Source of the DNA: Defluviitaleaceae bacterium
Lineage (GTDB): Bacteria; Bacillota; Clostridia; Lachnospirales; WQUN01
DNA: 64,000 nucleotides
Assembly: GCA_009779755.1 (NCBI GenBank)
Contig: WRDO01000007.1
Location: forward strand, 21,165-85,164
Direction: 5' to 3'
Below, one piece after another: positions 24,301 through 46,382 of the stretch. Below the pieces are notes generated by a model. It did not search any database. It was not told the origin of the DNA and saw nothing but the letters and a program-made list of their open reading frames with translations. The translations under genes were made by a program, and so were the position numbers. Within the stretch, counting starts at the first letter, position 1, and each line of letters opens with the position of its first letter.

Positions 24301-24890
24301 TTACGGGCAACCCCATTTTCGACGCCCTGACCGACCGCGCCAACCCCCGCATCCTCTTTATGCCCAACTACCGCAAACACCTCTACCTCGGCGAAAATAA
24401 ATTTAACCCCGACTTCCGCGACTCCGAATACGCCACCCGCATCGGTGACATACTACTGGAAGAACGTTTCCTGGACGTAGCCGACGCCTTAGGCATCTCC
24501 GTAGATTTCGCCCCCCACGCCAAGACCTTCCTCCACCTCTCCGACCTCGAGCGCGACGACTCCGTAAAAGTCATTCCCCCCGCCTACCCCCGCCTGCCCC
24601 TGTGCCAAGACGCCGCCCTCCTCATCACCGACACCCTGCCCGCCCACGGCTTCGCTTACCTCAACAAACCCGTAATCTACTTCAACTTCGACCCCGACAA
24701 CACCCCCCCCCGCGACAACGCAGCCTTCGGCGAATCCACAAGCGACTTCGAGGAACTGATCGATCTGCTCGTGTACTATATGCAAAATAACTTTACGATT
24801 AAACCCGAATACAAAACCGTAGCCGACGGTTTCTTCCCCTACCGGGACGGGGAAAGCTGCAGGAGGGTTTATGAGGCAACACAATGCTAA
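21366..24890 (+). CDS. bifunctional GT2 glycosyltransferase / TagF-like CDP-glycerol glycerophosphotransferase with about 390-aa unknown N-domain
   Basis: ATG 21366 preferred over TTG 21327 (GGGAG upstream). GT2 core VSCIIPVYNAAPYINEAVESI..LINDGSTDDS..LFLDADD. C-terminal TagB/TagF-like region (ILFMPNYRKH.., FAPHAKTF.., ITDTLPAHGFAYLNKPVIYF). Confidence 0.8.
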   Translation: MNLFIRSTIDLSLLTPTLESITSTIYNTVIEDEPTRDDEIIDNKAIDDVFTPEPSFSFMLPVTVLLDVYPYELVPDSFAQYLSLRERGVTFTHVPTFSFTQMQEPCIVIEAGQRLNDDVIRYIGYFFEDSDCPLVFIPVLGEGESLPEAIQNLPPGGIVHDFAPLLSYNFICAAKDPSLLDAGALQAAVRLGSYGILNRVTAEGATIHRTLTARDLYDLPDTNLIEEFILNQATQPIETGDEDIGLLLPHISPALFGLNPPEVRILSVTNHYEMAEITGEYITDAPDREIKPSASTQIIFHETTPLNQTVRDKLIPRFSFRCRLALEEAETSVTFKLGRKTIRTEMIALPEDTRNYAFTFKKNALQINKIAMRPHYKVSCIIPVYNAAPYINEAVESIIAQSLDFFPYIQIVLINDGSTDDSPTLCEALAQKYPYNIVYALQANKGASAARNAGRRYAMGEYILFLDADDLLDVNLIQAAVNALDNKPNANYDFVAFPIKMFGTDNLSPPELTHRFTDNGAINIKTEPDKVQFSASGVLMRAEAIKGIFFDEELTAAEDAEFIARAFADKQQYLACKDAFYHYRVTPGKYGRNLGQYGGTALFADRLAAFSMEKYGAVTPYIQHVILRDITRAFIPETDTDETEAALIETAVRQLTDALRHVDDTAINNARKLTPHQREYLLRLKQGEEAEAPAINKIHMDYMLEQNGNVIIRGYIYLPDYDGINLTARCEATDTEYTARLTADTRVSVDVFGLNQCMARAFTFTIPTPSEEILLSFTADVSFPPGFVLIGKESVAHASDNDIRIAPLSRESIAKTLQNTPSAKKEITDEYINLYPLLNATRLWLFVSPNPLEKNATAHFYDYCASLTDGIDCRLVVSADEVPLHPEGTAIALGSKTHATMSLFAEKIIISDAAEIKRLRDMTGLTVGTFLYLPNQALTEADRPALAALNGLPITAVALLSPHETDFLPAGLLRDAAFVTGNPIFDALTDRANPRILFMPNYRKHLYLGENKFNPDFRDSEYATRIGDILLEERFLDVADALGISVDFAPHAKTFLHLSDLERDDSVKVIPPAYPRLPLCQDAALLITDTLPAHGFAYLNKPVIYFNFDPDNTPPRDNAAFGESTSDFEELIDLLVYYMQNNFTIKPEYKTVADGFFPYRDGESCRRVYEATQC

Positions 24891-33249: not shown

Positions 33250-35796
33250 ATGAATAAAGTTATAATCGTATCAAAAAACCCCGATGTTTCTAAATATAAC
33301 ACGATACAAGAAGCTATTACGGCAATTCCGGTTGAAAAACAAAAAAAATATGTTATCTTCATAAAACCCGGAATTTATAATGAAAAATTACATATAAACA
33401 AATCCAATATTATTCTATATGGTGAAGACCCGGCCAATACGATTATAAAATATGATTGTTCCCGCTCTATTTTAAAATCAAACACAAGTAATACAGCTAC
33501 TTGTTTAATAGAAGCGGATGATATACAAATTGTCAATATTACTTTTGAAAATACAGCCGGTCAATATCGTGATGTAGGACAAGCTGTAGCCGTGGCTACC
33601 CAAGGAGACAGAATTTCATTTTATAACTGTCGTTTTTTAGCGTATACCAACACATTATTCGCAGGTCTTGGCAATTTTAAACCGGAAGATGACGGTCCAT
33701 TAAACGCCGGCAGGCAGTATTATTATAAATGTTTTATTACCGGTGACTTTAATATTATATTAGGTACGGCAATTTGTTTTTTTGAAGAATGTAAAATCGA
33801 ATGCCGGGAAGACTCGACTTACTTTGCATGTGTTATAGCAATTAATGCTGCTTCACGGTATAACAAAAATGGATATGTTTTTTATAAATGCTATATAAAC
33901 GGACATGCTAAAATAAAAACTTGGCTTGGGCAGCCGTTTTCCAATCATTCATCAATTGCATATATAAAATGTAATATGGAAAACATAGCTTCCGAAGGTT
34001 GGACACAAAGGTTTCTGCCTGAATTATGTTTTAAAAACACTGCCCGCTTTATAGAATTCGGCACCCGTGGCGTTGATATGTCACAACGAACAGAATGGTC
34101 AAAAACATTGCCCGAAGATGGTAATTTGTTCCTTTATACAAAGGCTAATGTATTATTAGGTTGGTCGCCGAATTATTCAAGGTTACCTTTACGTACCAAC
34201 CTTAAAATATATGCCCGGCAATCCTTGAATGCCTTGCAAGGATTTTTTCGCAAGACAACACCGGATGGAATGTTATCAGAGATTTCCAATTCTAAAACAG
34301 TTATATATTCGCTTCCGCATCCCGCATTTATACGTAAAGCCTTGGTTCATAAATTTGCTTACCACCCCGAAAGTGAAATAATCATCTTAACAGATAACAG
34401 TTTTTCTTTATTTCCTGACGGCGGTAAATTGCCGAATGGCGTTAAGGAAGTTATAAAAATAGATTATTACATTGCAAGTAAATTAGATGATGAAGTTGAA
34501 GCTGAAAATGTTATTGTTAAATATATTGAACATCTATTTATAGAAAATAATATTGATATATCATGTGTCAATGAAATTTATTGCATGAATGATATGGTGG
34601 ACCCTGTAGTTGTATATTTGGAAAATAAAAAAATATATTATAATTGCATTGAATTTTCAGCAAATCAATTTTTTATTTTTGATACATATACATGGAGTGA
34701 ATTAACCAAGCGAACACAAGTTCATTATAATATCCAAAAAAAATATAAAATATTTTCATCAACCGGTAATTATTGCAAAAAAAGATTATTATGTGAAGAT
34801 ACTACGAAAAAAATTGAAACAGAAATCGAAGAAGTCGTATTTGATTTTTGCGAAGCTCTAAACATCATTAATCAACGTGATAAAAATGTATTGTTAGATT
34901 TTTATGGTGAAATAAAATTACCAAATGATTACAAATATATAACACTGGTAGCACTTCCAAATTTCACTACAATCTCGAAGTTCCAAAACTTATCTGTTAA
35001 AGACATAATCTTAAGCCATCAGCGATTAATTGATTTTTATATAGGAGATGTTAATAATATTGCCTTGAAACCACATCCTTGTATTATTACGGAATACAAT
35101 GATTTACCATCCTATTTTAATAACGCTCCCGTTATAGACGCAAATATACCTACAGAGCTTTTTCCTATTTATAACATAAAAGTAAAACTTGCGATTGCAG
35201 TAAAAACAACCGCTTTAGATATTTTGAAGCGACAGGATACCGATACACAAGTGGATGTAATCGGAATCCGTTATTTTAAAATGTTTCAATTATTAAATCA
35301 GTTATATTTTGCTTTCAGCCTTATAAAGTTCATTCCTAGCAATAACAAAAATGTTTTTGTATATAATATAGATATCGGTCAAGTAAGTAAATTTGCAAGT
35401 TACGCCTTTAATGATTTAAACCTTACCATAAAAAATACAGATATTTTACTTAAATCTTGTGATTCGATTGCTTTAATAAACGGCATTGAAGAACTCCCAC
35501 CGAATAATATAAACGATTTTTTTAATAATATAAAAGACTTACCGGTCGTGTTTGTTTTGGCACAAAAAAGAATAACGTTTAACTTAAACGATTATTTAGA
35601 AATAAAAATTAATAAAGAAATAATAAATATAAATACGTTGGAACCAATGGGTGATGAATTTGTATATATTATATGTAATAACGAGGAAACGTTGAATGCG
35701 TTGGAAAATCAAAAAATAATAAAAAGTTTAAAATATACAGGTGTAAATTTAAATTCAGAAATAGCAAGATTTAAAAAAGAAGGAATTGATTTATAG
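33250..35796 (+). CDS. pectinesterase-fold (CE8-like, catalytic residues substituted) domain fused to about 540-aa unknown domain
   Basis: 848-aa ORF; first about 310 aa collinear with pectin methylesterase motifs (GIYNE, QAVAV, RQYYYKCFITG, FIEFGTRG..RTEWS); no signal peptide; C-terminal part has an ALKPHP motif. Confidence 0.6.
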   Translation: MNKVIIVSKNPDVSKYNTIQEAITAIPVEKQKKYVIFIKPGIYNEKLHINKSNIILYGEDPANTIIKYDCSRSILKSNTSNTATCLIEADDIQIVNITFENTAGQYRDVGQAVAVATQGDRISFYNCRFLAYTNTLFAGLGNFKPEDDGPLNAGRQYYYKCFITGDFNIILGTAICFFEECKIECREDSTYFACVIAINAASRYNKNGYVFYKCYINGHAKIKTWLGQPFSNHSSIAYIKCNMENIASEGWTQRFLPELCFKNTARFIEFGTRGVDMSQRTEWSKTLPEDGNLFLYTKANVLLGWSPNYSRLPLRTNLKIYARQSLNALQGFFRKTTPDGMLSEISNSKTVIYSLPHPAFIRKALVHKFAYHPESEIIILTDNSFSLFPDGGKLPNGVKEVIKIDYYIASKLDDEVEAENVIVKYIEHLFIENNIDISCVNEIYCMNDMVDPVVVYLENKKIYYNCIEFSANQFFIFDTYTWSELTKRTQVHYNIQKKYKIFSSTGNYCKKRLLCEDTTKKIETEIEEVVFDFCEALNIINQRDKNVLLDFYGEIKLPNDYKYITLVALPNFTTISKFQNLSVKDIILSHQRLIDFYIGDVNNIALKPHPCIITEYNDLPSYFNNAPVIDANIPTELFPIYNIKVKLAIAVKTTALDILKRQDTDTQVDVIGIRYFKMFQLLNQLYFAFSLIKFIPSNNKNVFVYNIDIGQVSKFASYAFNDLNLTIKNTDILLKSCDSIALINGIEELPPNNINDFFNNIKDLPVVFVLAQKRITFNLNDYLEIKINKEIININTLEPMGDEFVYIICNNEETLNALENQKIIKSLKYTGVNLNSEIARFKKEGIDL

Positions 35797-38354
35797 TGAA
35801 CCTATTATCCGCCGATTATGATATCCGCGATGTAAACAACCCAATTAGAGAATTCTATCGCTTTTCTGGCATGGATTTCCAACCCGCACATTTAGACGGA
35901 AAATTGTATTCTATGTGTGTTCATCCTATTGATTTGAATAGTTTTCCGGTTGTGTTTTTAGAACATATATATGATAAAACGCAAAGCAAATCAACACCGG
36001 AATTGGTGTCGGTAGGCCGTTCCGCCGGGTACATTGCCGTAAGCAATAATTTAGGGAAATCATGGGATGAATACCCCGTTCCATGGAAAAATAGTTCCTA
36101 CCCGTTGCATTGCTTCACTACTACGGATGGTTTTCATATCATTGCGATGAAAACAACGGAGTCAAATGAAGATGATTTAACCGAACTCATAATATTAAAT
36201 CCCGATTTCTCAGAGTCACATCGTATCGTATCAAAGGAAAAGAAATATCCTTGGCACGGTTCTTGGTCAATCGACCAAAATGTTTTAGGTACTATCATGT
36301 ATGCGGAATACGCATCACTTGGAAAATATAAAAACGTATGTGTAATGCGCAGTAGAGACAATGGATTTACATGGGAAAAGGTTTTTATTCTACCAAGCAA
36401 CCAAGAAAACGCCGATTTCACCATTCGTCATTTCCATACATGCCAATCAGATCCTTATATAACGGGACATTGGTATGTATCAACAGGTGACGATAATTGC
36501 ACACTCTTTAAAAGCGAGGACGACGGAGATACTTGGGCGCGTATATTTCCTGAAAAAATAATGTTTTCAGGTGAAGTGGATATTAATACAAAAGAAGCAA
36601 TAACGAATCAATTATTCCGTATGACGGCATCAATCATCACCCGAGACAGCATTTGGTTCATCCATGATACATCTGCGGAGCCTTCAACACCCGGATATAA
36701 ATCCTTTCCTTGTTTGGTGCGGATGATAAAAACACCGCCGTATGAAACAAATATTATTTGCAAAGTTGGATGCTTAGCGGTACGCAGTTTAACAATCTTA
36801 AATGATGATTTATACATCGCCAGTACGGAGGATAAACTGGATGAAGGTAAAATAGATTTTTTCATCGGTAGTACACAAACGGGAAACATTGTATACTTAG
36901 GTGGTATTCCAATCGCAAAGAAAGCCCGAAGCATAGGCAACGGAGCAAGATGCAGCAAAGAGGCATACAAAAATAAATTATTTATGCACATGGGTGCAGG
37001 GATGAGAAAAGGTCACACAGCAACATTATGCGTAACAGTGTCTCAAATTAACATAAAACAATCGGAACCAAATAACTCATTAGGCGGATCCACATACACA
37101 AATCGAACATGGAAGCATTACGACCCCTATGTAGCAAAATTTACTAACAACCCTAAGATTATATTAGATATGGGGTGTGGACGAGGTTTATTTGTTGAGG
37201 CATGTTTGGAACATGGAATACAAGCCGATGGCTTTGATATAAATGTTGCCTATATAAACGAGGCTAATGCCAGATTATCCGGCAGGGCGAATTTATTTAC
37301 ACATGATATTGAATATCCGTTAACAAATACCCCATCTGAAAAATATGATGCCGTATTCCATAATCAAGTAATAGAATATTTAACAAAATCAGCGCAACAT
37401 AACTGTATTCGCGAAGCATACCGTGTACTTAAACCGGGCGGTGAATTTTATATAGGTACATGCAGCAAATACGACCCAACGCAACAAAAAGATGTGGTTC
37501 CCGACCATATTAATATCCTTAATATGTCGGAATTGTGCGTTATGTTGGAAGCAATAGGATTTGTAACCACCAATTTAGCGCGAAACTATCCGCTTGCAAA
37601 CCTCACCGACGAGCAAAAGGAAATATGGGAAAGAGAACAACCCGAATGGCTTTCGTATTCTTGTAACGTATTAGCCGTCAAACCGGAATATAAAGGTGCA
37701 TACTGCCCATTGTGCGGATGGAGCGGAAAAGAATTTCGTCCGTACAACAAAAGAAATAACGCGGAATGTCCCAATTGCCGCGCATTGGAACGACATAGAC
37801 ATTTATGGCTATACTATAAAGATATAATGCCGCCGGAACGAGCATGTACTTTTTTGATGTTTGCGCCGGAAAATTGTATTTACGAACGGTTAAAATTATT
37901 TCCAAACTTGGAAATATACACGGCGGACTTAATACCCGGTCGTGGAGAACATGTATTTGATATACAGGCCATACCATTTCCTGACAACACGTTTGATTTT
38001 GTTGAATGTTTTTTCGTCCTTTGTTTTGTTGAAAACGATATTCTTGGGTTGCAAGAAATATATCGTGTGATGAAACCGGGTGGTAAAGCCTTTATATATT
38101 TGCCTATGGGTAAAACGCAAACGGCACAAGAATTAGATACTGATGAACAAGCGGCACGCGCAACCGTTCAAAATCCTCATATGCGTCGATTATACGGTGC
38201 CGATGTTATGGATTGGCTGGCGTTACCCGGTTTTCATGTCCAAAACATAGATGAAATAGTGCGCGTTAATAAAGATACGTTGATAAGCCATGGAATAAAT
38301 ACATCCGTCAATATATATATTTTGGAAAAGGGAAGGAATACTATTAATTTATGA
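35796..38354 (+). CDS. BNR/sialidase-like propeller + class I methyltransferase + zinc-ribbon methyltransferase fusion
   Basis: GTG start sharing 1 nt with the upstream TAG. Asp-boxes SNNLGKSW (36042), SRDNGFTW (36351), SEDDGDTW (36513). ILDMGCGRGL..VLKPGGEF. CPLCGW..CPNCRALERHRH (from 37704) plus a second MTase (YRVMKPGGKAF). Confidence 0.65.
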   Translation: MNLLSADYDIRDVNNPIREFYRFSGMDFQPAHLDGKLYSMCVHPIDLNSFPVVFLEHIYDKTQSKSTPELVSVGRSAGYIAVSNNLGKSWDEYPVPWKNSSYPLHCFTTTDGFHIIAMKTTESNEDDLTELIILNPDFSESHRIVSKEKKYPWHGSWSIDQNVLGTIMYAEYASLGKYKNVCVMRSRDNGFTWEKVFILPSNQENADFTIRHFHTCQSDPYITGHWYVSTGDDNCTLFKSEDDGDTWARIFPEKIMFSGEVDINTKEAITNQLFRMTASIITRDSIWFIHDTSAEPSTPGYKSFPCLVRMIKTPPYETNIICKVGCLAVRSLTILNDDLYIASTEDKLDEGKIDFFIGSTQTGNIVYLGGIPIAKKARSIGNGARCSKEAYKNKLFMHMGAGMRKGHTATLCVTVSQINIKQSEPNNSLGGSTYTNRTWKHYDPYVAKFTNNPKIILDMGCGRGLFVEACLEHGIQADGFDINVAYINEANARLSGRANLFTHDIEYPLTNTPSEKYDAVFHNQVIEYLTKSAQHNCIREAYRVLKPGGEFYIGTCSKYDPTQQKDVVPDHINILNMSELCVMLEAIGFVTTNLARNYPLANLTDEQKEIWEREQPEWLSYSCNVLAVKPEYKGAYCPLCGWSGKEFRPYNKRNNAECPNCRALERHRHLWLYYKDIMPPERACTFLMFAPENCIYERLKLFPNLEIYTADLIPGRGEHVFDIQAIPFPDNTFDFVECFFVLCFVENDILGLQEIYRVMKPGGKAFIYLPMGKTQTAQELDTDEQAARATVQNPHMRRLYGADVMDWLALPGFHVQNIDEIVRVNKDTLISHGINTSVNIYILEKGRNTINL

Positions 38355-40615
38355 AACCACGTTTGATGTTAACAGTGGATGTGGAAGCCCATCAAAAACG
38401 CGCCGCGGAAGACCACGTCGAACGCTTGATATACGGTAGACAAAATGGCGTTGAATGGGGTATCGGTAAAATGATGGACATCGCCGATGGCTTCAATGTA
38501 AAAATGGTTTTTTATTTGGACTTCGCGGAAGTGGCTGTATACGGCGAAGCGATTACGGAAGTAGGAAAATATATTGTGACCCGCGGACACGATTTGCAAT
38601 TACATGGCCATCCGGATGTATTGCCGACAGAATTTTGGAAAAACAGGGGGATTTCGCCGCAAACAAACGCGAACTTGTTCACTCCCGTACACGCGGATGC
38701 TTATATTTATTATTTGGTAAATGAACACCAAAAATGCGCACCCTACCACCCCACCGCATACCGGGGCGGAGCATTCCGAATCAACGCACCTTTATTAGAC
38801 GCGCTTCGAAAACATAAAATCCCCATTGACGCTTCTTACAATCTACACAGTGAAAACCGCCCATGCGACCTAGCGCCGAGCAAGCAGTTTTATTGGGAAA
38901 ACGGTGTTTTGGAAATCCCAATTGCTGTGATTAACGATACGAATGTGTTCCCCACACTGGCATCCTTGGATTTTAATTCCGCCCGATTTAACGACAGGCA
39001 CGATTATAAAGCCGATGTCAATGTCTATATGGATAATTACCGTCGTTTTTTTGATTCCTTTTTTAAGACGTTCGGAACGGATGCGATAGCGTCCGTCGTT
39101 ATGCATTCCTGGTCCTTTTTCCAACGGGCGGAAGATGAAACATATTCTGTAATAAACCCACTTGCGCCAAAAATGTTTGAAAATTTGCTTTTAGAATATT
39201 CAAAAAAATTCGATATAATAACTGTTTCGGATATTTCGCAACAAATAAATTCGCAAAAATTTTCAAATATTATTATACCAATGCCTCAGGGTGAAAACCT
39301 TAAAATGGAATGTCCCATATGCGGTTGGACAGGGAAGACATTTAACCCTTATAACGGAAGAAATAACGCCGAATGCCCCATATGTTATTCATTGGAAAGA
39401 CATCGGCATTTATGGTTGTACTATAATTATTCACAACTTTTGGAAATAGCCGTACCAAAAAAAGTGTTAATTTTCGCGCCTTCCGGTTCAATAATTTCGA
39501 AGCTAAGGAGATATAAAAACCTAGAATTGGTGACTGCCGATATAAATCCAAAACGAGCGGAACATCAGGTTGACGTACAAGCCATCCCGTTTGAAGATGA
39601 ATCCTTCGATTTCATTGAATGTTTTTTCGTACTACCCTATGTGGAGGATGACGTAAAAGCATTAAATGAATTGCATCGTGTGCTTAAAACCAACGGAAAA
39701 ATCGCACTTTATTTACCCATACGAGCTATATCGGAAGGGTCAATAGATTTATACGCCGTAGATACCCCATTCACGGAAACGGAAAGGAAAAACAACCCCG
39801 GTTTCCGCCATGTATACGGATCGGATGTATTAAATTGGCTGGCCCTCCCGGGTTTTAATGCACAAAGAATAGATAATATCGTTACATACTCCCCGGATGA
39901 ATTAAAGCGTTATGGTATAAACTCCTCTTCAAGTATTTTTATATTGGAAAAAATAAAAACCACAAAAAATACGGATAGAATAGCAGAAGCCTATCATGGT
40001 GCGATGGGTGAAAATTTATGCAGGGCTACCCGAGATAGGATACATTGGATATGTGAAAGAGCCATAGGAGAAAATATATTGGATGTAGGATGCAGTCAAG
40101 GAATAACCACCATTTTATTAGCACGTGAAGGCAAGCGTGTTGTCGGTGTGGACATATGCCAACAAGGTATTGATTATGCTCAACAATCATTGAAGAACGA
40201 AAATAAAACCACACGCGAATATATAAAATTTTTATGCACGGATTTCGTTTCTTATGCAAAAAAATGCAACAAAAAATTTGACAGCATCATAATGGGGGAG
40301 GTATTGGAACACCTTACAGAACCGGAACGTTTTATATCTAAGGCATACACTATTTTATGCGACGGCGGACGGCTGGTAGCTACAGTCCCTTTCGGAATAA
40401 ATAACTACCATGACCATAAACGCACGTATTACCTCACGGCGTTCTATAACCTTTTTATTGATAAATTCACTATAACCGAGATTAAATTCCTTGGTGATTG
40501 GATAGGTATTGTGGGAGTGAAAGTAAAAGCGGAAGGAATTAAATTGGACAGCGCTTTGTTTATGCAAGCGGAAGAGGCTTTTATGATACGCGAAAAGGAG
40601 TTACGCCGGATGTAA
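38351..40615 (+). CDS. CE4-like polysaccharide deacetylase + zinc-ribbon methyltransferase + class I methyltransferase fusion
   Basis: ATGA overlap. LTVDVEAH..GHDLQLHGHP deacetylase-like N-domain. CPICGW..CPICYSLERHRH (from 39311) plus an MTase paralogous to the preceding gene. ILDVGCSQG..GEVLEHL third domain. Confidence 0.6.
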   Translation: MKPRLMLTVDVEAHQKRAAEDHVERLIYGRQNGVEWGIGKMMDIADGFNVKMVFYLDFAEVAVYGEAITEVGKYIVTRGHDLQLHGHPDVLPTEFWKNRGISPQTNANLFTPVHADAYIYYLVNEHQKCAPYHPTAYRGGAFRINAPLLDALRKHKIPIDASYNLHSENRPCDLAPSKQFYWENGVLEIPIAVINDTNVFPTLASLDFNSARFNDRHDYKADVNVYMDNYRRFFDSFFKTFGTDAIASVVMHSWSFFQRAEDETYSVINPLAPKMFENLLLEYSKKFDIITVSDISQQINSQKFSNIIIPMPQGENLKMECPICGWTGKTFNPYNGRNNAECPICYSLERHRHLWLYYNYSQLLEIAVPKKVLIFAPSGSIISKLRRYKNLELVTADINPKRAEHQVDVQAIPFEDESFDFIECFFVLPYVEDDVKALNELHRVLKTNGKIALYLPIRAISEGSIDLYAVDTPFTETERKNNPGFRHVYGSDVLNWLALPGFNAQRIDNIVTYSPDELKRYGINSSSSIFILEKIKTTKNTDRIAEAYHGAMGENLCRATRDRIHWICERAIGENILDVGCSQGITTILLAREGKRVVGVDICQQGIDYAQQSLKNENKTTREYIKFLCTDFVSYAKKCNKKFDSIIMGEVLEHLTEPERFISKAYTILCDGGRLVATVPFGINNYHDHKRTYYLTAFYNLFIDKFTITEIKFLGDWIGIVGVKVKAEGIKLDSALFMQAEEAFMIREKELRRM

Positions 40616-40768: not shown

Positions 40769-41509
40769 ATGAAAATTATAGCCGTCATACCTGCAAGATA
40801 CGCTTCCAGCCGTTTTCCCGGTAAACCGCTTGCTGACATACATGGTAAACCCATGATTTGGTGGGTATACAACCAGATAAAAAAAGCAACCCGCTTAAAC
40901 AGTATAATCGTGGCAACCGATGATAAAAGGATATTGGCAACTTGCGAAGATTTAAATATAACTGTATGTATGACAAATATTAACCATAACACACCTACAT
41001 CAAGGACACATGAAGTATCGACCAGATACGAAGCTGATTTATATATAATGATTAATGGTGATGAACCTATGATAGATCCAAAAGTGATCGATCATATAAT
41101 TCCAAAAAGTTTACAAAAAAAACCTTATGTGGCAAGTGCGGCGACAACCATTTCAAACGCAACCGATGTAATTGACCCCACAAATTTAAAAGTTGTACTT
41201 TCGAATGATAATAAATTATTATATATTTCACGCGCACCCATTCCATACCCAAAGGGAACGAATGAATATACGTATAAAAAATTCGTTGGTATTCAAGCAT
41301 TAAATAAATCTGCGCTTGACTTTTATGTAAATAAACCCAAAAGTCCCCTTGAATGGATTGAAGAATCTGATTTATTGCGGTTTATTGAAAATGGAATTGA
41401 AGTAGACTTTATAAATGTTAACTATAACAACCTATCTATTGATACACCAAAGGATTTGGAAAAAATAAAAAAAATTATAAGAAAAGAGGAAGATCATGAA
41501 GGAATATAA
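40769..41509 (+). CDS. kdsB: 3-deoxy-manno-octulosonate cytidylyltransferase (CMP-Kdo synthetase)
   Basis: 246-aa ORF; MKIIAVIPARYASSRFPGKPLADIHGKPMIWWVY is a textbook KdsB N-terminus. Confidence 0.85.
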   Translation: MKIIAVIPARYASSRFPGKPLADIHGKPMIWWVYNQIKKATRLNSIIVATDDKRILATCEDLNITVCMTNINHNTPTSRTHEVSTRYEADLYIMINGDEPMIDPKVIDHIIPKSLQKKPYVASAATTISNATDVIDPTNLKVVLSNDNKLLYISRAPIPYPKGTNEYTYKKFVGIQALNKSALDFYVNKPKSPLEWIEESDLLRFIENGIEVDFINVNYNNLSIDTPKDLEKIKKIIRKEEDHEGI

Positions 41510-41660: not shown

Positions 41661-41887
41661 CCCGTTTACAGGAAACCTCCGAAACCACCATATCCATGAT
41701 ATTCCTGTGCATGAACATCAAGCGCCGGCTGAGGGAACTTTTTTTTACATTTGGGTTTGGGCGTTATTCGGTAGTATGTTTGTGGATAATTCAATAAATA
41801 AGGCGTTCATTGCCAAAAATATGGTTTGTTCGTAAACCCTAATTTAATAATATCTTATTGGTATTTTTCGCAGAAAGGTATGATTTT

Positions 41888-42577
41888 ATGAAAGTGGTAA
41901 TATTAGGAAAGGCTAGTTCCGTCAGAATTAAAAATAAAAATTATCGACCATTCTATAATGGTGAATCATTAATGGACATACACATTAAAAAATTGATCAA
42001 TGTATTACAACCTGATGATATATACCTTTCATGCGAGGATGAAACGTTCCGGAGCGTTGCTCAAAATTGGAAAATTAATTTCATCCTCCGTGATGAAAGG
42101 TATACAAGATTGACAACCAGCAACGTCGATGTCGTGCATTATGTGTGTAAGGATGTCCCGGGCAACGGGGATATATTATGGACAACTCCTGTGGAGCCGT
42201 TGTTCGATGAATATACAAACGTTTTAGAATGTTGGGAAAGGATAGATAAAACCAAACATGATTCGCTTAACGTTGTATATCCTCAAAAAAGGTTTATTTT
42301 GGATCAAAATTATAATCCAATTGGTTTCGGCTTCGGTCATTGGCACAAATATTCACAAGATATACCACCCATATACCAAGTGAGTTGGTCAACGGCTATT
42401 TTAAGCAGGGCTTGTATAGAAAAGGTCAGTTATATGATTGGTGCGCGTCCCTTTTGGTACGATTGTTATTCAACCGTAGTAGATATCGATACGGAGGATG
42501 ATTGGGAGATTGCACAATTACTCTATTCTAAAAAAATCAAGGAAGGTTACACGAATGGAAATCATAGAAATTTATAA
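41888..42577 (+). CDS. acylneuraminate (NeuA-like) cytidylyltransferase family protein
   Basis: Start moved to ATG 41888; MKVVILGKASSVRIKNKNYRPFYNGESLMD resembles the CMP-sugar synthetase N-terminus (..R.p.KN...l.G..L..); divergent. Confidence 0.5.
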   Translation: MKVVILGKASSVRIKNKNYRPFYNGESLMDIHIKKLINVLQPDDIYLSCEDETFRSVAQNWKINFILRDERYTRLTTSNVDVVHYVCKDVPGNGDILWTTPVEPLFDEYTNVLECWERIDKTKHDSLNVVYPQKRFILDQNYNPIGFGFGHWHKYSQDIPPIYQVSWSTAILSRACIEKVSYMIGARPFWYDCYSTVVDIDTEDDWEIAQLLYSKKIKEGYTNGNHRNL

Positions 42578-43019
42578 AGATCTTCTACGCCAAGCCCATG
42601 TAATAATCCCAAAAAAAGCGGAAATAAAACTATATCACCATTATGGCGCTGAAAACGTCCGTGAAACAGGTGCGTTATTCATAACGGTCGTCCAACATGA
42701 TTATTGTAAATATATCGTATGTATGACTCCCGGGCAAACATACCCAATGCATTATCACCGAATCAAGGACGAATCATTTTATGTTTTACACGGCGATTTA
42801 TCCGTTGTGCTTGAAGATGAATTTCATTTAATAACACCGGGTGAAATTCTTAACGTACCCCGTCGATTTACGCACGGCTTTTCAACCAAAACCGGATGCG
42901 TATTTGAGGAACTTTCGACAGCCTATTTATTAAACGATTCGGTTTATCAGGATAAATATATAAGAAACATATCCGGTAGCGATAAAATGACTTATATATC
43001 CATTCATGAAAATAAATAA
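42555..43019 (+). CDS. cupin-fold sugar isomerase (D-lyxose/D-mannose isomerase-like)
   Basis: Start moved to ATG 42555; exact cupin motif 1 GQTYPMHYHRIKDESFYVLHG (G-x5-HxH-x4-E-x6-G) and motif 2-like GEILNVPRRFTH. Confidence 0.55.
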   Translation: MEIIEIYKDLLRQAHVIIPKKAEIKLYHHYGAENVRETGALFITVVQHDYCKYIVCMTPGQTYPMHYHRIKDESFYVLHGDLSVVLEDEFHLITPGEILNVPRRFTHGFSTKTGCVFEELSTAYLLNDSVYQDKYIRNISGSDKMTYISIHENK

Positions 43020-43039: not shown

Positions 43040-43867
43040 ATGACAAACGTTAAATCTTTTCATATTGATGATTGTTTTGAAATCGGGAATGGGGTTTTAA
43101 CACTTATCGGCGGCCCGTGTTCCATCGAAAGTGAAGACATGTGCCTTAAAGTTGCTGCAACGGTATTGGATATTTGCAAGGAACTGGGTATAAATTACAT
43201 CTTTAAATCATCCTTTGACAAAGCCAACCGGTCATCATTAAACGCGAGCCGGGCTTTGGGTATGGAAAAGGGATTAAAAATATTAAGTAAAATAAAAAAG
43301 GAATTATCGGTTCCAATTACAACCGATGTGCACGAAGTTTGGCAATGTGCTGAAGTCGGCGAAGTGGTTGATATCATACAAATACCCGCATACTTGTGTC
43401 GGCAAACAGATTTATTAATAGCCTCGGCAAAAACGGGTAAGGCCGTAAGCGTAAAAAAAGGCCAATTTATGGCACCGCAAAACATGGACAACGCAATTAA
43501 AAAAATCACATCGGTAGGCAACCACAAGTGCATCTTAATGGAACGCGGAACATCATTTGGTTATAATAAGTTGGTGGTAGACATGCCGGGCTTGCAAATT
43601 ATGCGTGAATTCGGTTACCCCGTATTTATCGATGCCACACATTCAGTCCAAGAACCCGGCGGAAACGCAACATACACAAAGGGAAATCGTGATTTTGCAA
43701 AGCTGATTATGTATTCGGCATTAGCCGCTGGGGTTGATGGCGTTTTTGCGGAAATCCACCCCGACCCGGATAATGCCGCCTCAGATGTTGGGAGCCAATT
43801 AAAATTATCGGAAGTACGCGAAATATTAAAAAAAGCGGTGTTAATAAACGATATTGCATGGCAGTAA
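43040..43867 (+). CDS. kdsA: 3-deoxy-8-phosphooctulonate (Kdo8P) synthase
   Basis: 275-aa ORF; FKSSFDKANRSS, QIPAYLCRQTDLL, VVDMPGLQIM, IDATHSVQ and FAEIHPDPDNA are collinear with E. coli KdsA; GGPCSIES carries the Cys of the metal-dependent class. Confidence 0.9.
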   Translation: MTNVKSFHIDDCFEIGNGVLTLIGGPCSIESEDMCLKVAATVLDICKELGINYIFKSSFDKANRSSLNASRALGMEKGLKILSKIKKELSVPITTDVHEVWQCAEVGEVVDIIQIPAYLCRQTDLLIASAKTGKAVSVKKGQFMAPQNMDNAIKKITSVGNHKCILMERGTSFGYNKLVVDMPGLQIMREFGYPVFIDATHSVQEPGGNATYTKGNRDFAKLIMYSALAAGVDGVFAEIHPDPDNAASDVGSQLKLSEVREILKKAVLINDIAWQ

Positions 43868-43885: not shown

Positions 43886-44386
43886 GTGATTGATCATATT
43901 GTTTTGGATGTTGACGGCACACTTACCGACGGTAAGATTATTATTTCTAACCATGGAGAAGAAATTAAAAATTTTCACGTAAGGGATGGTCAAATAATTA
44001 TTGCATTACCGAAATTAGGATACCATCTTTTAATAATAACAGGACGAACCTCTAAGATTACTGAAATAAGGGCAAATGAATTGAAAATAAATACCGTCCT
44101 GCAAGGAGTACAGAACAAAGAAAAAACGTTGAATGATTACTTTAAAATGAACTACATAACAGGTGATAGATTTGCTTATATCGGCGACGATTTGAATGAT
44201 TATTCAGCCATGAAGTTGTGCGCTTTTAAAGCCTGCCCGGCAGATGCTGTAACCGAAATCCGCGGGCTTTGCGATTACGTTTCCGTAAGGAAGGGAGGTC
44301 AAGGTGCAGTAAGGGAAATATGTGAATATTTATTACAAAAGCAGAATCAATATGAATCATTCTTGCAATTATTTAGAGCGTGCTGA
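43886..44386 (+). CDS. kdsC: Kdo8P phosphatase (HAD IIIA, KdsC family)
   Basis: GTG start; LDVDGTLTDG motif I, ITGR, GDDLNDYSAM motif III; KdsC-like length (166 aa). Confidence 0.85.
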   Translation: MIDHIVLDVDGTLTDGKIIISNHGEEIKNFHVRDGQIIIALPKLGYHLLIITGRTSKITEIRANELKINTVLQGVQNKEKTLNDYFKMNYITGDRFAYIGDDLNDYSAMKLCAFKACPADAVTEIRGLCDYVSVRKGGQGAVREICEYLLQKQNQYESFLQLFRAC

Positions 44387-44520: not shown

Positions 44521-45747
44521 ATGTTAAACATCATCGGCTTAGGTTACATCGGCCTTCCTACGGCATTAATCATGGCAAGCAACGATATTCCTGTCATCGG
44601 CGTGGATAAGAATCCTTCGGTGGTTGAATCCCTTAACCGCGGCGAGGTTACTTTCGAAGAAGACGGACTTCCTGCGTTGTTTAAAAAGGCAGTGCAAGCG
44701 AACATCGTTTTCCGAACAACCCCCACCCCATCCGATATGTACATCATCGCTGTGCCTACGCCTTTTAATAAATCTACCAAGCGCATAAACCCAAGCTATG
44801 TTATCACAGCCATACGCGAGGTGTTGGCCGTGTGTAACGATAACGCCGTCATCGTAATCGAGTCCACCGTTGCCCCGGGCACCATTGACAAATTTATACG
44901 ACCGGTGGTCACCGGTGCCAACGTCCGCATCGCCCACGCACCCGAGCGGATTATCCCCGGCGATATGGTGAGGGAGCTTGTAAACAACGCCCGCATTATC
45001 GGCGCGGACGATGAAGAAACGGCACAAGAGGTAAAAAAACTATACACCGCTTTTTGTAAAGCGGAAATCGTAACCACGGATATACGATCGGCGGAGATGT
45101 CGAAGGTGGTGGAGAACACCTTCCGCGATATTAATATTGCTTTCGCCAATGAGTTGGCGAAGATTTGCCGCGCCGGCAATATGGATGTATATGAAATTAT
45201 CCGCATCGCCAACATGCACCCCCGCGTTAATATCCTGCGCCCCGGGCCGGGCGTGGGCGGGCATTGTATATCCGTTGACCCGTGGTTTTTGGTGGGGGAT
45301 TTCCCGCAGTTGTCCTTGCTTATCCACGAGGCGCGTAAGATAAACGATTCCATGCCGGTTTTTGTACTGGAGCGTATACAGGAAATCATGAAAGATGAAA
45401 ATATTATTGATATTTCCCGTATCGGTTTTTATGGGCTTACGTACAAAGAGGATGTGGATGATACGCGGGAAAGCCCGACGTTACAATTGTTTGATATCAT
45501 TACCAAATCACTGGGGCAAACACCGAAATGCTACGACCCCATGGTAAAGGAAATGATGTTTGACGCGCAATACAACGATTTTGGCGCTTTTATCCGCGAC
45601 ATTGATTTTATCGTGATCATGGTCGGGCATTCGCATTTAAAGGATAACATGGAGAAACTAAACGACAAGACCGTATTTGACACACGTTACTGCATAACCC
45701 CAAGCGATGCTGATTATCCGGTGGGTACAAAGCATTATTATTTATAA
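44521..45747 (+). CDS. wecC: UDP-N-acetyl-D-mannosamine dehydrogenase-like nucleotide-sugar dehydrogenase
   Basis: 408-aa ORF; IIGLGYIGLPTALIMA..VIGVDKN..LNRGE close to E. coli WecC as remembered; catalytic-Cys context GGHCISVDPWF; composition returns to GC-rich. Confidence 0.8.
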   Translation: MLNIIGLGYIGLPTALIMASNDIPVIGVDKNPSVVESLNRGEVTFEEDGLPALFKKAVQANIVFRTTPTPSDMYIIAVPTPFNKSTKRINPSYVITAIREVLAVCNDNAVIVIESTVAPGTIDKFIRPVVTGANVRIAHAPERIIPGDMVRELVNNARIIGADDEETAQEVKKLYTAFCKAEIVTTDIRSAEMSKVVENTFRDINIAFANELAKICRAGNMDVYEIIRIANMHPRVNILRPGPGVGGHCISVDPWFLVGDFPQLSLLIHEARKINDSMPVFVLERIQEIMKDENIIDISRIGFYGLTYKEDVDDTRESPTLQLFDIITKSLGQTPKCYDPMVKEMMFDAQYNDFGAFIRDIDFIVIMVGHSHLKDNMEKLNDKTVFDTRYCITPSDADYPVGTKHYYL

Positions 45748-45965
45748 ACGTAATTCTTATTGCGCTATTTTCAAATCAACAAGCAATGATTCATGTAGTG
45801 CTTGTGATATATTGATGCCTTTTGCATGTTCAATCCAGTACGACATATTCAACCTATCTTCCCGAAAAGTTTAACGAGGCGGTTTAAAGCCAAAGGAGCG
45901 AACAAGGTAGCTTGTTTGTCGGTTACCTCACCGAGGACGCAACATTTGTCTTACCGTTTTACTTT

Positions 45966-46382
45966 TTACAAACCCTCCATAAATATCGAAGCGGTTGTTA
46001 TTAATGGGCGGTCAATTTCTACGGTTAACAAATCATTATCGCCGGTGATTAGGATATCGACATCTGCAGAAATCGCAGAATATAATATAGGTGCGTCTTT
46101 TATGTCGCGGATTGTGAACAAATAATCATTGGGTAATGGGAATGGTGTGTATTCAAGTTCAAATGGAAGTTTTTGTAAAAATGCAGAAACGTTTGCCATT
46201 TTGCTTGAAAACTTCTTTTCGACCACACGCTCAAACTCATCAATAATATAAGTTGATAAAACTAATTTGTGCCGTAAGCAAATATGTGAAAACAAATCAG
46301 TCAGAATTCGGCTTTTAAATACAGCAATGGATACTAAGATGTTTGTATCAACCATTATCCGCATTACAAGCCTCCCAAACAT
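45966..46382 (-). CDS. PIN-domain toxin
   Basis: 138-aa ORF; MVDTNILVS and ILITGDNDLL acidic motifs; start uncertain (46382, 46364 or 46355); overlaps the antitoxin gene end. Confidence 0.75.
   Translation of the reverse strand: MFGRLVMRIMVDTNILVSIAVFKSRILTDLFSHICLRHKLVLSTYIIDEFERVVEKKFSSKMANVSAFLQKLPFELEYTPFPLPNDYLFTIRDIKDAPILYSAISADVDILITGDNDLLTVEIDRPLITTASIFMEGL

What the first reader, a model, noticed from the sequence alone, without database searches (positions are those of the whole stretch)
33250..35796. Cytoplasmic pectin-methylesterase-fold domain with its catalytic residues substituted (D->N, D->N, R->Q)
Seen: the first about 310 aa follow the pectinesterase (CE8) motif order: GIYNE (GxYxE), QAVAV (QAVAL), RQYYYKCFITG and the C-terminal FIEFGTRG..RTEWS. 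The catalytic positions differ. AYTNTL (33640-33657) replaces GYQDTL, so Q->T and D->N. GDFNIILG (33742-33765) aligns with GTVDFIFG, so D->N by my alignment. WLGQPF (33922-33939) replaces YLGRPW, so R->Q. There is no signal peptide. About 540 aa of unknown sequence follows, containing ALKPHP (HP at 35074-35079). Established: those two Asp and the Arg are the catalytic core of pectin methylesterases. An HP motif is shared by sialyl-, Kdo- and TagF-type GT-B transferases. Inference: this is either an inactivated esterase fold reused as a binding module for an acidic, possibly methyl-esterified glycan, or a fold with changed chemistry. It is fused to a candidate ulosonic-acid transferase. Four methyltransferase domains next door make a methyl-ester theme plausible.
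Basis: partly seen in the sequence, partly recalled or inferred. Interest (0 to 1): 0.65.

Follow-up and report, generated by a model that had tools for sequence, protein, structure and literature searches.

The report
Dead pectin esterase fused to sugar-acid transferase

Summary
ORF 33250-35796 (848 aa, no signal peptide or membrane segment) starts with a CE8 pectin-methylesterase domain (PF01095, E 1.7e-43; model TM 0.72-0.78 to solved PMEs). Nucleophile Asp, acid/base Asp, Arg, one oxyanion Gln and the stacking Trp are N168, N134, Q228, T133 and F230. In 124 related PME domains the canonical residues are present in 122-123.

The query keeps 50 of 61 conserved PME positions. Ten of its 11 changes lie in the three active-site motifs (P about 1e-5).

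The "unknown" 540 aa are a GT-B glycosyltransferase (AlphaFold pLDDT 88). Among the top Foldseek matches, the highest TM-score is to a bacterial polysialyltransferase.

In 6 of 8 loci examined, family members lie within a few kb of (usually directly beside) CMP-sugar synthetase genes. Here KdsB, KdsA and KdsC lie 5-8 kb downstream.

Best reading: a CMP-Kdo (or related ulosonic acid) transferase whose dead esterase domain holds the acceptor glycan. The transferase half is well supported; the binding role is inference. The fusion is a singleton from one metagenomic genome. It is a new variant of known kinds.

The parts
33250..35796 (+). Complete ORF, 848 aa. Soluble cytoplasmic two-module protein (PME-like domain + GT-B).
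   Evidence: Identical to P0001, 'pectinesterase family protein [Defluviitaleaceae bacterium]'. Present in two assemblies.
33250..34179 (+). N-terminal CE8 pectin-methylesterase-fold beta-helix (aa 1-310), catalytically disabled.
   Evidence: PF01095 E 1.7e-43. AlphaFold pLDDT 79.6, pTM 0.87. The top 15 Foldseek hits are all PMEs, TM 0.72-0.78 for the best. 50 of 61 conserved columns are kept.
33580..33582 (+). Q111, the first oxyanion-hole Gln (carrot Q113), retained.
33646..33651 (+). T133-N134, replacing the second oxyanion Gln and the general acid/base Asp (carrot Q135-D136).
   Evidence: N134 codon is AAC.
33751..33753 (+). N168, replacing the nucleophile Asp (carrot D157).
   Evidence: Codon is AAT.
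33931..33939 (+). Q228-P229-F230, replacing R-P-W of the LGRPW motif (carrot R225, W227).
   Evidence: Q228 codon is CAG.
34180..34299 (+). Linker (aa 311-350). One predicted helix, low model confidence, not conserved in relatives.
   Evidence: pLDDT 45-61 for the first 40 residues of the C-part model. Family matches start at about aa 351.
34300..34929 (+). N-terminal Rossmann half of the GT-B (aa 351-560), the likely acceptor side. Carries conserved H357, D448, Y456 and E468.
   Evidence: AlphaFold secondary structure. Conservation over 118 family sequences.
34651..34653 (+). E468 at the end of a beta-strand. Candidate catalytic base, in the position of the D/E-D/E-G motif of sialyltransferases. 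E in 82% and D in 7% of the family.
   Evidence: Comparison with MhPST E153 (PMC5517516). Inferred.
34930..35349 (+). C-terminal Rossmann half of the GT-B (aa 561-700), the CMP-sugar donor side.
35032..35034 (+). D595 (Q591-x-x-x-D595). D in 95% of the family; role unknown. It lies 14 aa before the His and inside a predicted helix.
35068..35079 (+). K607-P-H609-P610, the (K/R)-x-H-P CMP-binding motif. K 98%, H 100%, P 99% in the family.
   Evidence: Motif defined in PMC2169525, PMC5517516 and PMC12887879.
35149..35157 (+). P634-T-E636, the candidate ribose-binding Glu, 27 aa after the His. E/D in 82% of the family.
   Evidence: Analogy with MhPST E323. Inferred.
35206..35211 (+). T653-T654, the candidate phosphate-binding S/T pair, 44 aa after the His. 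S/T in 88% and 82% of the family.
   Evidence: Analogy with MhPST S339/T340 and KrkA S271/S272. Inferred.
35350..35793 (+). Family-specific C-terminal alpha/beta subdomain (aa 701-848), function unknown. Conserved K789, E803, L827.
40769..41509 (+). KdsB, CMP-Kdo synthetase; the probable source of the donor.
   Evidence: NCBIfam NF009905 259 bits (cut-off 255) and TIGR00466 157.7 bits (cut-off 155.2)
41858..42577 (+). Second CTP_transf_3 cytidylyltransferase (weakly PseF-like), an alternative source of the donor.
   Evidence: Relatives of it lie beside family members in L001, L006 and L009.
43040..43867 (+). KdsA, Kdo-8-phosphate synthase.
   Evidence: NF003543 372 bits against a cut-off of 242
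43886..44386 (+). KdsC, Kdo-8-phosphate phosphatase.
   Evidence: TIGR01670 144.7 bits against a cut-off of 107
35796..40615 (+). Two downstream genes (852 and 754 aa), each with two class I methyltransferase domains. Start/stop overlaps suggest co-translation with the ORF.

Best explanation
The ORF encodes a soluble cytoplasmic two-module enzyme of a cell-surface glycopolymer pathway.

Shown: residues about 351-836 are a GT-B glycosyltransferase. It belongs to an uncurated family of about 114 representatives at 50% identity, distantly related to bacterial polysialyltransferases (GT38/GT52 type). The family keeps the CMP-binding set K607-x-H609-P610, E636 and T653-T654.

Inferred from context: the donor is a CMP-activated 3-deoxy-2-ulosonic acid. 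It is most likely CMP-Kdo made by KdsA/KdsC/KdsB encoded 5-8 kb downstream. E468 (or H357/D448) on the other Rossmann half would activate the acceptor hydroxyl, and His609 would stabilise the CMP leaving group, as in sialyltransferases.

Shown: residues 1-310 are a pectin-methylesterase beta-helix of the kind found as small intracellular enzymes in related Clostridia. The nucleophile, the acid/base, the Arg, one oxyanion Gln and the stacking Trp are all replaced, while the fold-defining residues are kept. It therefore cannot work as a classical CE8 esterase.

Inferred: the neutralised substrate groove holds the acidic and/or methylated acceptor chain, or otherwise positions it, for the transferase. 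In relatives the equivalent slot is filled by pyruvyl-, acetyl- or DUF6270-type modifying domains or by Sel1 repeats.
For: N-domain. PF01095 E 1.7e-43. Residue register is given by three independent PDB alignments and a MAFFT alignment. The model has pTM 0.87 and matches only PMEs, with TM up to 0.78. The canonical residues occur in 122-123 of 124 related domains. Of 61 conserved columns 50 are kept, and 10 of the 11 changed lie in the three active-site motifs, hypergeometric P about 1e-5.

C-domain. Exhaustive HMMER finds 114 relatives, 46 at E<=1e-10. AlphaFold gives pLDDT 88.1 and pTM 0.87. Foldseek hits are GT-B enzymes; polysialyltransferase 5wc6/5wcn has the best TM (0.50-0.51), and PmST1 and P. 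dagmatis sialyltransferases are also listed. Family conservation is K607 98%, H609 100%, P610 99%, E636 E/D 82%, S/T653 88%. The order and spacing resemble MhPST K289-x-H291-P292, E323, S339/T340. Six of 51 relatives hit PF07388 and two hit PF07922. P0171 scores 23.2 bits against a cut-off of 23.3. NCBI names P0133 'polysialyltransferase family glycosyltransferase'.

Context. KdsB, KdsA and KdsC pass curated cut-offs. CTP_transf_3 genes lie directly beside family members in L001, L006, L009 and L010, within 2-3 kb in L011, and about 5 kb downstream in the window. That is 6 of 8 loci, including a full KdsABCD set in L011. No other protein of the cluster resembles this domain. None of the 16 proteins checked has a membrane-like segment apart from the unrelated signal-peptide protein at 18969-20879 and a borderline N-terminal hydrophobic stretch in the nucleotide-sugar dehydrogenase at 44521-45747.
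Against: No activity of any kind was measured. The protein is a singleton, so conservation of N134/N168/Q228 cannot be checked. The three substitutions are single G->A changes from GAC/GAT/CGG in an AT-rich gene, which is what relaxed selection plus mutational bias would also give. No full-length model or coordinates were available, so whether the PME groove faces the transferase site is unknown. The query itself has no Pfam GT38/GT52 hit, and a family profile finds no PDB sequence. The closest stand-alone relatives (P0124, P0133) sit beside the second, PseF-like type of cytidylyltransferase rather than KdsB, so the donor may not be Kdo. The D/E-D/E-G motif is reduced to a single conserved Glu. 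No exporter or initiating transferase is present in the window, so the acceptor is unidentified.
Confidence: 0.5

Rival explanations
1. The C-terminal transferase works as described, but the PME-like domain is only a relic or an inert scaffold. It would be a captured intracellular PME gene that lost activity through relaxed selection and AT-biased drift, and is kept merely for folding, solubility or oligomerisation.
For: All three key changes are single G->A transitions in a 34% GC domain. The fusion is unique: no other family member has a PME region, and none of the listed top 120 PME relatives carries a glycosyltransferase Pfam domain. Most family members work without any N-terminal partner. 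Some relatives carry non-catalytic Sel1 repeats in the same position.
Against: Random decay should not hit all five active-site columns while sparing 50 of 61 conserved ones; P is 7.8e-5 for the five and about 1e-5 for the clustering. The ORF is intact, and the domain still models confidently as a complete beta-helix. Several cleft aromatics are kept or conservatively replaced (F137, W225, F230, W251).
Confidence: 0.25
2. The donor is not Kdo. It would be a different CMP-activated sugar acid made through the second cytidylyltransferase (41858-42577), with Kdo being added by another, unrecognised enzyme of the cluster.
For: The nearest stand-alone relatives, P0124 and P0133, are directly followed by this second type of cytidylyltransferase (E 1e-19 and 6.5e-14 to the window copy) and not by KdsB. 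Many family loci pair a CTP_transf_3 gene with a class II pyruvate aldolase and a HAD phosphatase instead of KdsA/KdsC.
Against: KdsB-type genes (E 1e-64 to 1e-76) lie beside family members in L006, L010 and L011, and L011 has KdsA/C/D as well. No other protein in the window cluster has a CMP-type GT-B signature. The remaining transferases are GT2, GT1/GT4 and TagF types.
Confidence: 0.3
3. The remodelled PME site has a new catalytic activity on the glycan, for example acting on an amide, lactone or other ester, or forming rather than cleaving a bond. The protein would then be a true bifunctional transferase and modifying enzyme, like its pyruvyl- and acetyl-transferase-fused relatives.
For: In relatives the partner domain is often a modifying enzyme: PS_pyruv_trans, Hexapep or DUF6270. 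The active-site region is remodelled at ten conserved positions rather than only at the three charged ones. Q111 and D166 remain near the site.
Against: No carboxylate, Ser/Cys/His nucleophile or metal-binding set is evident at the aligned catalytic positions. There is no precedent in CE8 that I know of or could find. The protein is a singleton, so no conserved new motif can be defined.
Confidence: 0.08
4. The transferase is a retaining, double-displacement enzyme like the beta-Kdo transferases (GT99/GT107/GT140), with the nearly invariant D595 of Q591-x-x-x-D595 as the covalent nucleophile.
For: A QxxxD string with D in 95% and Q in 54% of the family lies upstream of the invariant HP. QXXXD plus HP are the conserved elements of retaining Kdo transferases (PMC10148158; PMC12887879). 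The GT38 C-terminal domain is structurally close to theirs.
Against: The Asp is 14 residues before the His, against 33-34 in KrkA (D193/H227), KpsC and WbbB. It lies inside a predicted helix rather than after the first strand of the donor domain. WbbB, KpsC and KrkA are absent from the top 50 structural matches, whereas classical GT-B enzymes and sialyltransferases are present.
Confidence: 0.12

Closest known systems
CE8 pectin methylesterases, e.g. carrot PME (1gq8) and the small intracellular Butyrivibrio Pme8A (8tne)
   Same: Same right-handed beta-helix fold (TM 0.77-0.78) and 25-27% structural-alignment identity. All motifs are in the same order, and 50 of 61 family-conserved positions are kept. 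It is cytoplasmic like Pme8A (PMC10530356).
   Different: Nucleophile Asp, acid/base Asp, Arg, second oxyanion Gln and stacking Trp are replaced by N, N, Q, T and F. It is fused to a biosynthetic transferase instead of standing alone or being fused to lipases, esterases or pectate lyases. It sits in a glycan synthesis cluster, not a pectin utilisation locus.
Bacterial polysialyltransferases and sialyltransferases (GT38 MhPST 5wc6/5wcn; GT52; GT80 PmST1)
   Same: GT-B fold, with the best TM among structural hits. K-x-H-P, ribose Glu and S/T-T are in the same order with similar spacing, and there is a conserved Glu at the end of a strand on the acceptor half. Relatives give weak PF07388/PF07922 hits, and one relative carries the NCBI name 'polysialyltransferase family'.
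   Different: No direct sequence hit for this protein or for the family profile against PDB. The D/E-D/E-G motif is reduced to one Glu. There is an extra ~150-aa C-terminal subdomain. The hosts identified are Firmicutes (Defluviitaleaceae here, Paenibacillus for P0133); most relatives are unnamed metagenome proteins. The neighbouring genes make Kdo or unknown CMP-sugar acids rather than sialic acid.
Retaining beta-Kdo transferases WbbB (GT99), KpsC/KpsS (GT107), KrkA (GT140)
   Same: They use a CMP-activated ulosonic acid and share the HP motif. They occur as modules of large soluble multi-domain enzymes in ABC-transporter-dependent glycan pathways, and Kdo genes are nearby.
   Different: The QXXXD nucleophile motif is not in the equivalent place. 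The fold is closer to classical GT-B and GT38 than to these reduced GT-B variants.
E. coli YbhC (3grh), a CE8-fold protein annotated as acyl-CoA thioester hydrolase
   Same: A CE8-fold protein with a non-pectin annotation. It is detected here at E 1.8e-5 by sequence and TM 0.64 by structure.
   Different: YbhC is a stand-alone protein. From my own knowledge, not tested here, it is an outer-membrane lipoprotein. It is much more distant from this domain than true PMEs are.

Membership tests
CE8 pectin methylesterase | Right-handed parallel beta-helix with the Pfam PF01095 signature | tested here: met
   E 1.7e-43, 148.9 bits against a cut-off of 27. The top 15 Foldseek hits are all PMEs.
CE8 pectin methylesterase | Nucleophile Asp (carrot D157, G-x-x-D-F-I-F-G) | tested here: not met
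   N168. D in 122 of 124 relatives.
CE8 pectin methylesterase | General acid/base Asp (carrot D136, Y-Q-D-T-L) | tested here: not met
   N134. D in 123 of 124 relatives.
CE8 pectin methylesterase | Arg that positions the nucleophile (carrot R225, L-G-R-P-W) | tested here: not met
   Q228, and the following W is F230. R and W each in 123 of 124 relatives.
CE8 pectin methylesterase | Two oxyanion-hole Gln (carrot Q113, Q135) | tested here: not met
   Q111 is kept but the second is T133.
CE8 pectin methylesterase | Pectin methyl-ester hydrolysis | not testable with these tools
   Needs an enzyme assay.
CMP-sugar-dependent GT-B of the sialyltransferase type (GT38/GT52/GT80) | GT-B two-Rossmann fold | tested here: met
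   AlphaFold pLDDT 88.1. 31 Foldseek hits at E<=0.001, nearly all GT-B enzymes or the GT-B-like UDP-GlcNAc 2-epimerases; best TM is to 5wcn/5wc6.
CMP-sugar-dependent GT-B of the sialyltransferase type (GT38/GT52/GT80) | (K/R)-x-H-P motif after the second strand of the donor domain | tested here: met
   K607-P-H609-P610 follows strand 604-607. K 98%, H 100%, P 99% of 112 aligned relatives.
CMP-sugar-dependent GT-B of the sialyltransferase type (GT38/GT52/GT80) | Ribose-binding Glu and phosphate-binding S-S/T downstream of HP | tested here: inconclusive
   E636 (+27) and T653-T654 (+44) are conserved in the family and spaced as in MhPST (+32, +48) and KrkA (S-S at +44). No coordinates were available to confirm their placement.
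CMP-sugar-dependent GT-B of the sialyltransferase type (GT38/GT52/GT80) | D/E-D/E-G catalytic-base motif on the acceptor domain | tested here: inconclusive
   Only E468 is conserved (E 82%, D 7%). The flanking positions vary, though some relatives read EEG or EDG.
CMP-sugar-dependent GT-B of the sialyltransferase type (GT38/GT52/GT80) | Match to the curated family models PF07388 / PF07922 | tested here: not met
   No hit for this protein at E<=1. 6 and 2 of 51 relatives hit weakly, and P0171 scores 23.2 against a cut-off of 23.3.
CMP-sugar-dependent GT-B of the sialyltransferase type (GT38/GT52/GT80) | Transfer from a CMP-activated ulosonic acid | not testable with these tools
   Only context is available: cytidylyltransferase genes beside 6 of 8 loci.
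Retaining beta-Kdo transferases (GT99/GT107/GT140) | QXXXD nucleophile motif after the first strand of the donor domain, about 33-34 aa before the HP His | tested here: not met
   A Q591xxxD595 string exists, but 14 aa before H609 and inside predicted helix 583-598 (motif).
Retaining beta-Kdo transferases (GT99/GT107/GT140) | Reduced or modified GT-B architecture resembling WbbB/KpsC/KrkA | tested here: not met
   None of these structures is among the top 50 Foldseek matches.

The most novel reading that the evidence does not exclude
The dead esterase domain is a selected 'reader' that recognises the carboxylate or methyl-ester state of an acidic polymer, either a polyuronate or a Kdo-containing chain. 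It would feed that chain to the attached Kdo transferase. Methylation by the neighbouring four methyltransferase domains would then be coupled to Kdo addition, for example as chain capping or termination in a cytoplasmically assembled, ABC-exported glycopolymer, or as Kdo side-branching on a pectin-like uronic-acid backbone. This would be the first case of a carbohydrate esterase fold recruited as the acceptor-recognition module of a glycosyltransferase.
Probability: 0.12. Interest if true: 0.75.

Novelty: new variant of a known kind. Interest (0 to 1): 0.5.

Why it matters
If the reading is right, three things follow.

1. It gives a clean natural example of a degradative carbohydrate-esterase fold turned into a non-catalytic part of a biosynthetic enzyme. 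That is useful for understanding how acceptor specificity is built into multi-domain glycan polymerases.

The two members with a named source organism are Firmicutes; most are unnamed metagenome proteins. The family is consistently linked to CMP-sugar synthetases and would probably merit its own CAZy family and biochemical characterisation.

3. It adds to the sparse evidence that Gram-positive-type bacteria build Kdo, or Kdo-like acids, into surface polymers.

The limits are plain. The evidence comes from one metagenome-assembled genome, there is no experiment, and the function of the esterase-like half is not settled.

Tried and rejected
- Word-indexed searches of 5.8 billion proteins with the C-terminal part alone and with the family profile returned only the protein itself. 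The low-complexity, AT-rich composition saturates the word filter. Only the exhaustive HMMER search found the family.
- A family profile and relative P0133 searched against PDB sequences found nothing.
- NCBIfam has no model for the family.
- A combined alignment for a full-length model (A2) was misaligned by MAFFT: PME domains were spread over the whole protein. It was abandoned, and the two halves were modelled separately. There is therefore no information on inter-domain geometry.
- Paralogy of the C-part with other cluster proteins: none.
- A PME region in any other family member: none.
- Plasmid searches with the ORF-poor stretch 45750-47950 and with the transferase domain: no match.
- Misassembly or chimera as the origin of the fusion: rejected. 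Two assemblers give the identical ORF and context, and both halves have similar GC3 (0.26 and 0.23).
- Flagellin glycosylation island: considered because all enzymes are soluble and a FliG gene is nearby. No flagellin gene is present, and relatives sit in loci with ABC-2 exporters and an initiating phosphotransferase, so a lipid-linked glycopolymer is more likely. No exporter was found in this window.
- QxxxD as the beta-Kdo-transferase nucleophile motif: rejected on spacing and secondary-structure position.
- D166 (two residues before N168) as a substitute nucleophile: not pursued. D occurs at that position in 7 canonical PMEs that also keep the normal Asp.
- Literature searches for inactive CE8 homologues or for Kdo in Firmicutes surface polymers found nothing on point.


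Full report
**The sequence and its setting.** The finding covers one intact ORF, 33250-35796 on the + strand, 848 aa.
- It is the fifth gene of a co-directional, tightly packed row that runs from 21327 to 45747. Most of the row lies in a 30-40% GC island within a roughly 53% GC background.
- The row encodes, in order: a GT2 + TagF-like protein; a Schlafen/AlbA-type protein; a GT2; two large GT1/GT4-type proteins; the ORF in question; two proteins with two class I methyltransferase domains each; a KdsB; a second CTP_transf_3 cytidylyltransferase; a cupin; KdsA; KdsC; and a nucleotide-sugar dehydrogenase.
- KdsA, KdsB and KdsC pass NCBI's curated cut-offs.
- The glycosyltransferases, methyltransferases and Kdo-pathway enzymes of the row have no membrane-like segment; only the dehydrogenase at the end shows a borderline N-terminal hydrophobic stretch.
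- The protein is identical to a database entry named 'pectinesterase family protein [Defluviitaleaceae bacterium]', a cluster of one.
- The same ORF and neighbours occur, base for base, in two assemblies made by different pipelines. The fusion is therefore not an assembly artefact.

All motifs are at the coordinates given.
- Residues 7-285 match Pfam Pectinesterase at E 1.7e-43.
- HMMER alignments to three solved PMEs and a MAFFT alignment with 18 trimmed relatives agree on the register:

| Carrot PME residue | Role | Query residue |
|---|---|---|
| Q113 | first oxyanion Gln | Q111 (kept) |
| Q135 | second oxyanion Gln | T133 |
| D136 | general acid/base | N134 |
| D157 | nucleophile | N168 |
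| R225 | positions the nucleophile | Q228 |
| W227 | stacking Trp | F230 |

- In 124 PME domains from the 119 nearest relatives, these last five positions are canonical in 122-123 cases. No other domain carries more than one deviation.
- An AlphaFold model of residues 1-320 (pLDDT 79.6, pTM 0.87) matches only PMEs among its first 15 structural neighbours, with TM up to 0.78 to Butyrivibrio Pme8A and carrot PME.
- The model tool returns no coordinates, so I could not inspect side-chain geometry. The residue assignment rests on the sequence register, which is unambiguous at this level of similarity.

**Remodelling, not general decay.** Of the 61 columns that are at least 90% conserved in the 124 canonical domains, the query keeps 50 and changes 11.
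- The changes are F92I, G131A, Q133T, D134N, Y162F, E164T, D168N, F169I, F171L, R228Q and W230F.
- Ten of the eleven fall in the three active-site motif windows (hypergeometric P about 1e-5).
- The chance that all five catalytic-site columns would be among 11 random changes is 7.8e-5.
- Other conserved charged residues (E45, E100, D120, R128, E269, R280) are kept.
- So the fold has been maintained while the catalytic centre was dismantled. Classical CE8 catalysis is excluded.
- Caveat 1: N134 (AAC), N168 (AAT) and Q228 (CAG) are each one G->A step from GAC, GAT and CGG. The domain is 34% GC. The 'isosteric' look could therefore come from mutational bias once selection on catalysis was lost.
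- Caveat 2: the absence of a signal peptide is not odd in itself. The best structural match, Pme8A, belongs to the 'small intracellular' PMEs of rumen Butyrivibrio (PMC10530356). Such a gene is a plausible ancestor of this domain.

**The 'unknown' 540 residues.** They have no Pfam or NCBIfam hit. Word-indexed searches found nothing.
- An exhaustive HMMER scan of 1.84 billion representatives found 114 relatives (46 at E<=1e-10). Most are stand-alone proteins of 480-570 aa that align with residues about 351-836.
- With 50 of them as alignment, AlphaFold gives a confident model (pLDDT 88.1, pTM 0.87): two Rossmann-type halves plus a family-specific C-terminal alpha/beta subdomain.
- Foldseek against the PDB returns GT-B enzymes. 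The lowest E-values go to UDP-GlcNAc 2-epimerases. The best TM-scores (0.50-0.51 on the target) go to the Mannheimia polysialyltransferase 5wc6/5wcn. MurG, OleD-type enzymes and the Pasteurella sialyltransferases follow.

**Donor-side signature.** I measured conservation across 118 aligned family sequences:

| Position | Conservation |
|---|---|
| K607 | K 98% |
| H609 | H 100% |
| P610 | P 99% |
| P634 | P 83% |
| E636 | E/D 82% |
| 653 | S/T 88% |
| 654 | T/S 82% |
| D595 | D 95% |
| D448 | D 91% |
| Y456 | Y 90% |
| E468 | E 82%, D 7% |

- In the polysialyltransferase structure, K289-x-H291-P292 binds cytosine and the phosphate, E323 binds the ribose hydroxyls, S339/T340 bind the phosphate, and E153 of the D/E-D/E-G motif is the base (PMC5517516).
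- The HP motif was defined as the common element of bacterial sialyltransferase families (PMC2169525).
- As (K/R)XHP, it is shared with the retaining Kdo transferases (PMC12887879).
- The order and spacing here are K-x-H-P, then E at +27, then T-T at +44. This fits that set.
- E468 ends a beta-strand on the acceptor half, as the sialyltransferase base does.
- Six of 51 relatives hit the GT38 model PF07388 and two hit the GT52 model weakly. One relative reaches 23.2 bits against a cut-off of 23.3 over the HP-containing half. NCBI names another 'polysialyltransferase family glycosyltransferase'.
- I therefore place the domain as a distant, uncurated branch of the CMP-sugar GT-B enzymes. It is not a member of GT38 or GT52 proper.

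**Inverting or retaining?** The family also has a Q-x-x-x-D string (Q591-D595). This recalls the QXXXD nucleophile motif of beta-Kdo transferases.
- Against that reading, the Asp lies 14 residues before the His, against 33-34 in those enzymes.
- It also lies inside a predicted helix rather than after the first strand of the donor domain.
- WbbB, KpsC and KrkA are not among the top 50 structural matches.
- I therefore favour a sialyltransferase-like direct-displacement mechanism. I keep the retaining mechanism as a minor rival, because D595 is almost invariant and unexplained.

**Which donor?** I examined seven loci of relatives plus the window.
- A CTP_transf_3 gene lies directly beside the family member in four loci, within 2-3 kb in L011, and about 5 kb downstream in the window. 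That makes six of eight.
- It is of KdsB type (E 1e-64 to 1e-76 to the window KdsB) in L006, L010 and L011.
- It is of the second, PseF-like type in L001, L006 and L009.
- L011 has the complete KdsA/B/C/D set plus an ABC-2 exporter. L006 and L009 also have ABC-2 exporters, and L009 has an initiating phosphotransferase.
- No other protein of the window cluster resembles this domain. The other transferases there are of NDP-sugar or CDP-glycerol types.
- CMP-Kdo is therefore the most likely donor here. The product of the second cytidylyltransferase is a real alternative.
- The acceptor is unknown. No exporter, flippase or initiating enzyme lies in the window.

**What the esterase-like half does.** This step is inference.
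- No other family member carries a PME domain. None of the listed top 120 PME relatives carries a glycosyltransferase Pfam domain; their partners are lipases, esterases and pectate lyases.
- Relatives of the transferase carry other partners: pyruvyl transferase, hexapeptide acetyltransferase or DUF6270 domains, or Sel1/TPR repeats.
- So the partner slot is used either for glycan modification or for non-catalytic binding or scaffolding.
- Four points make an acceptor-holding or chain-guiding role the best-supported single idea (my estimate about 0.35-0.4 on its own): a maintained fold; a dismantled and charge-neutralised catalytic centre; partly retained cleft aromatics (F137, W225, F230, W251); and a cluster that makes acidic sugars (Kdo, and a uronic acid through the dehydrogenase).
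- An inert relic or scaffold is next (about 0.25). A new chemistry is least likely (about 0.08).
- The methyl-ester idea rests only on the adjacency of generic methyltransferases. Methyltransferase genes do also flank two relatives (L004, L009).

**Comparison and novelty.**
- The N-half is a structural member of CE8 that fails every catalytic criterion.
- The C-half works like a GT38/GT52/GT80-type CMP-sugar transferase but fails the curated family models.
- The combination has no counterpart among the relatives retrieved here and none that I could find in the literature.
- It is a new variant of known kinds rather than a new kind of system. It comes from a single metagenome-assembled genome.
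- I score interest at 0.5. The transferase family and its CMP-sugar neighbourhoods are arguably of wider interest than the singleton fusion itself.

Noticed in passing
L006 12717-16465; L009 11752-14026; L010 11494-14528; L011 14186-15484 (-): Loci of the transferase family repeatedly carry a cytidylyltransferase next to a class II pyruvate aldolase and, in L006 and L010, a HAD phosphatase. The aldolase is HMGL-like, 531-537 aa; its best NCBIfam hit is 4-hydroxy-2-oxovalerate aldolase, far below cut-off. In L011 the second cytidylyltransferase is fused to an RraA-like (pyruvate aldolase family) domain. This looks like an unrecognised route to a CMP-activated 3-deoxy-2-ulosonic acid, or a replacement for KdsA, in Firmicutes.
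   Followed up: partly
window 26000-48000: A 30-40% GC island sits in a roughly 53% GC background. It covers the glycan genes from the 660-aa GT2 onward, while the first gene of the row (21327-24890, GT2 + TagF-like) has host-like GC. This suggests a horizontally acquired cassette joined to a resident gene.
   Followed up: no
window 45750-47930: About 2.2 kb at the end of the island has no ORF longer than 138 aa and no tRNA. There was no match in the plasmid collection.
   Followed up: partly
window 35796-37085: The N-terminal 430 aa of the 852-aa double methyltransferase give only marginal BNR/sialidase/GH74-type hits (Pfam BNR_2 E 0.005, Sortilin-Vps10 1e-4; PDB sialidase 4bbw E 0.12). This may be a second hydrolase-type fold (beta-propeller) attached to a biosynthetic enzyme in the same cluster, but the hits are not significant.
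   Followed up: partly
window 41858-43019: The second cytidylyltransferase overlaps a 173-aa cupin (weakly WbuC-like). No arabinose-5-phosphate isomerase (KdsD, SIS domain) is present in the cluster, although KdsA/B/C are. The cupin might supply the isomerase step, or KdsD may be encoded elsewhere.
   Followed up: no
window 18969-20879: A 636-aa protein with a clear signal peptide and a C-terminal membrane segment, but no family assignment, lies just upstream of the glycan gene row. It is a conceivable surface-protein target or unrelated.
   Followed up: no
window 14226-15227: A lone FliG gene (all three FliG domains) lies among redox and sugar-epimerase genes. No other flagellar genes are in the window.
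   Followed up: no
P0116 and P0077 (database relatives): These are the only other active-site deviations among 124 related PME domains. P0116 has the nucleophile Asp replaced by Tyr, and P0077 has the first oxyanion Gln replaced by Pro.
   Followed up: no
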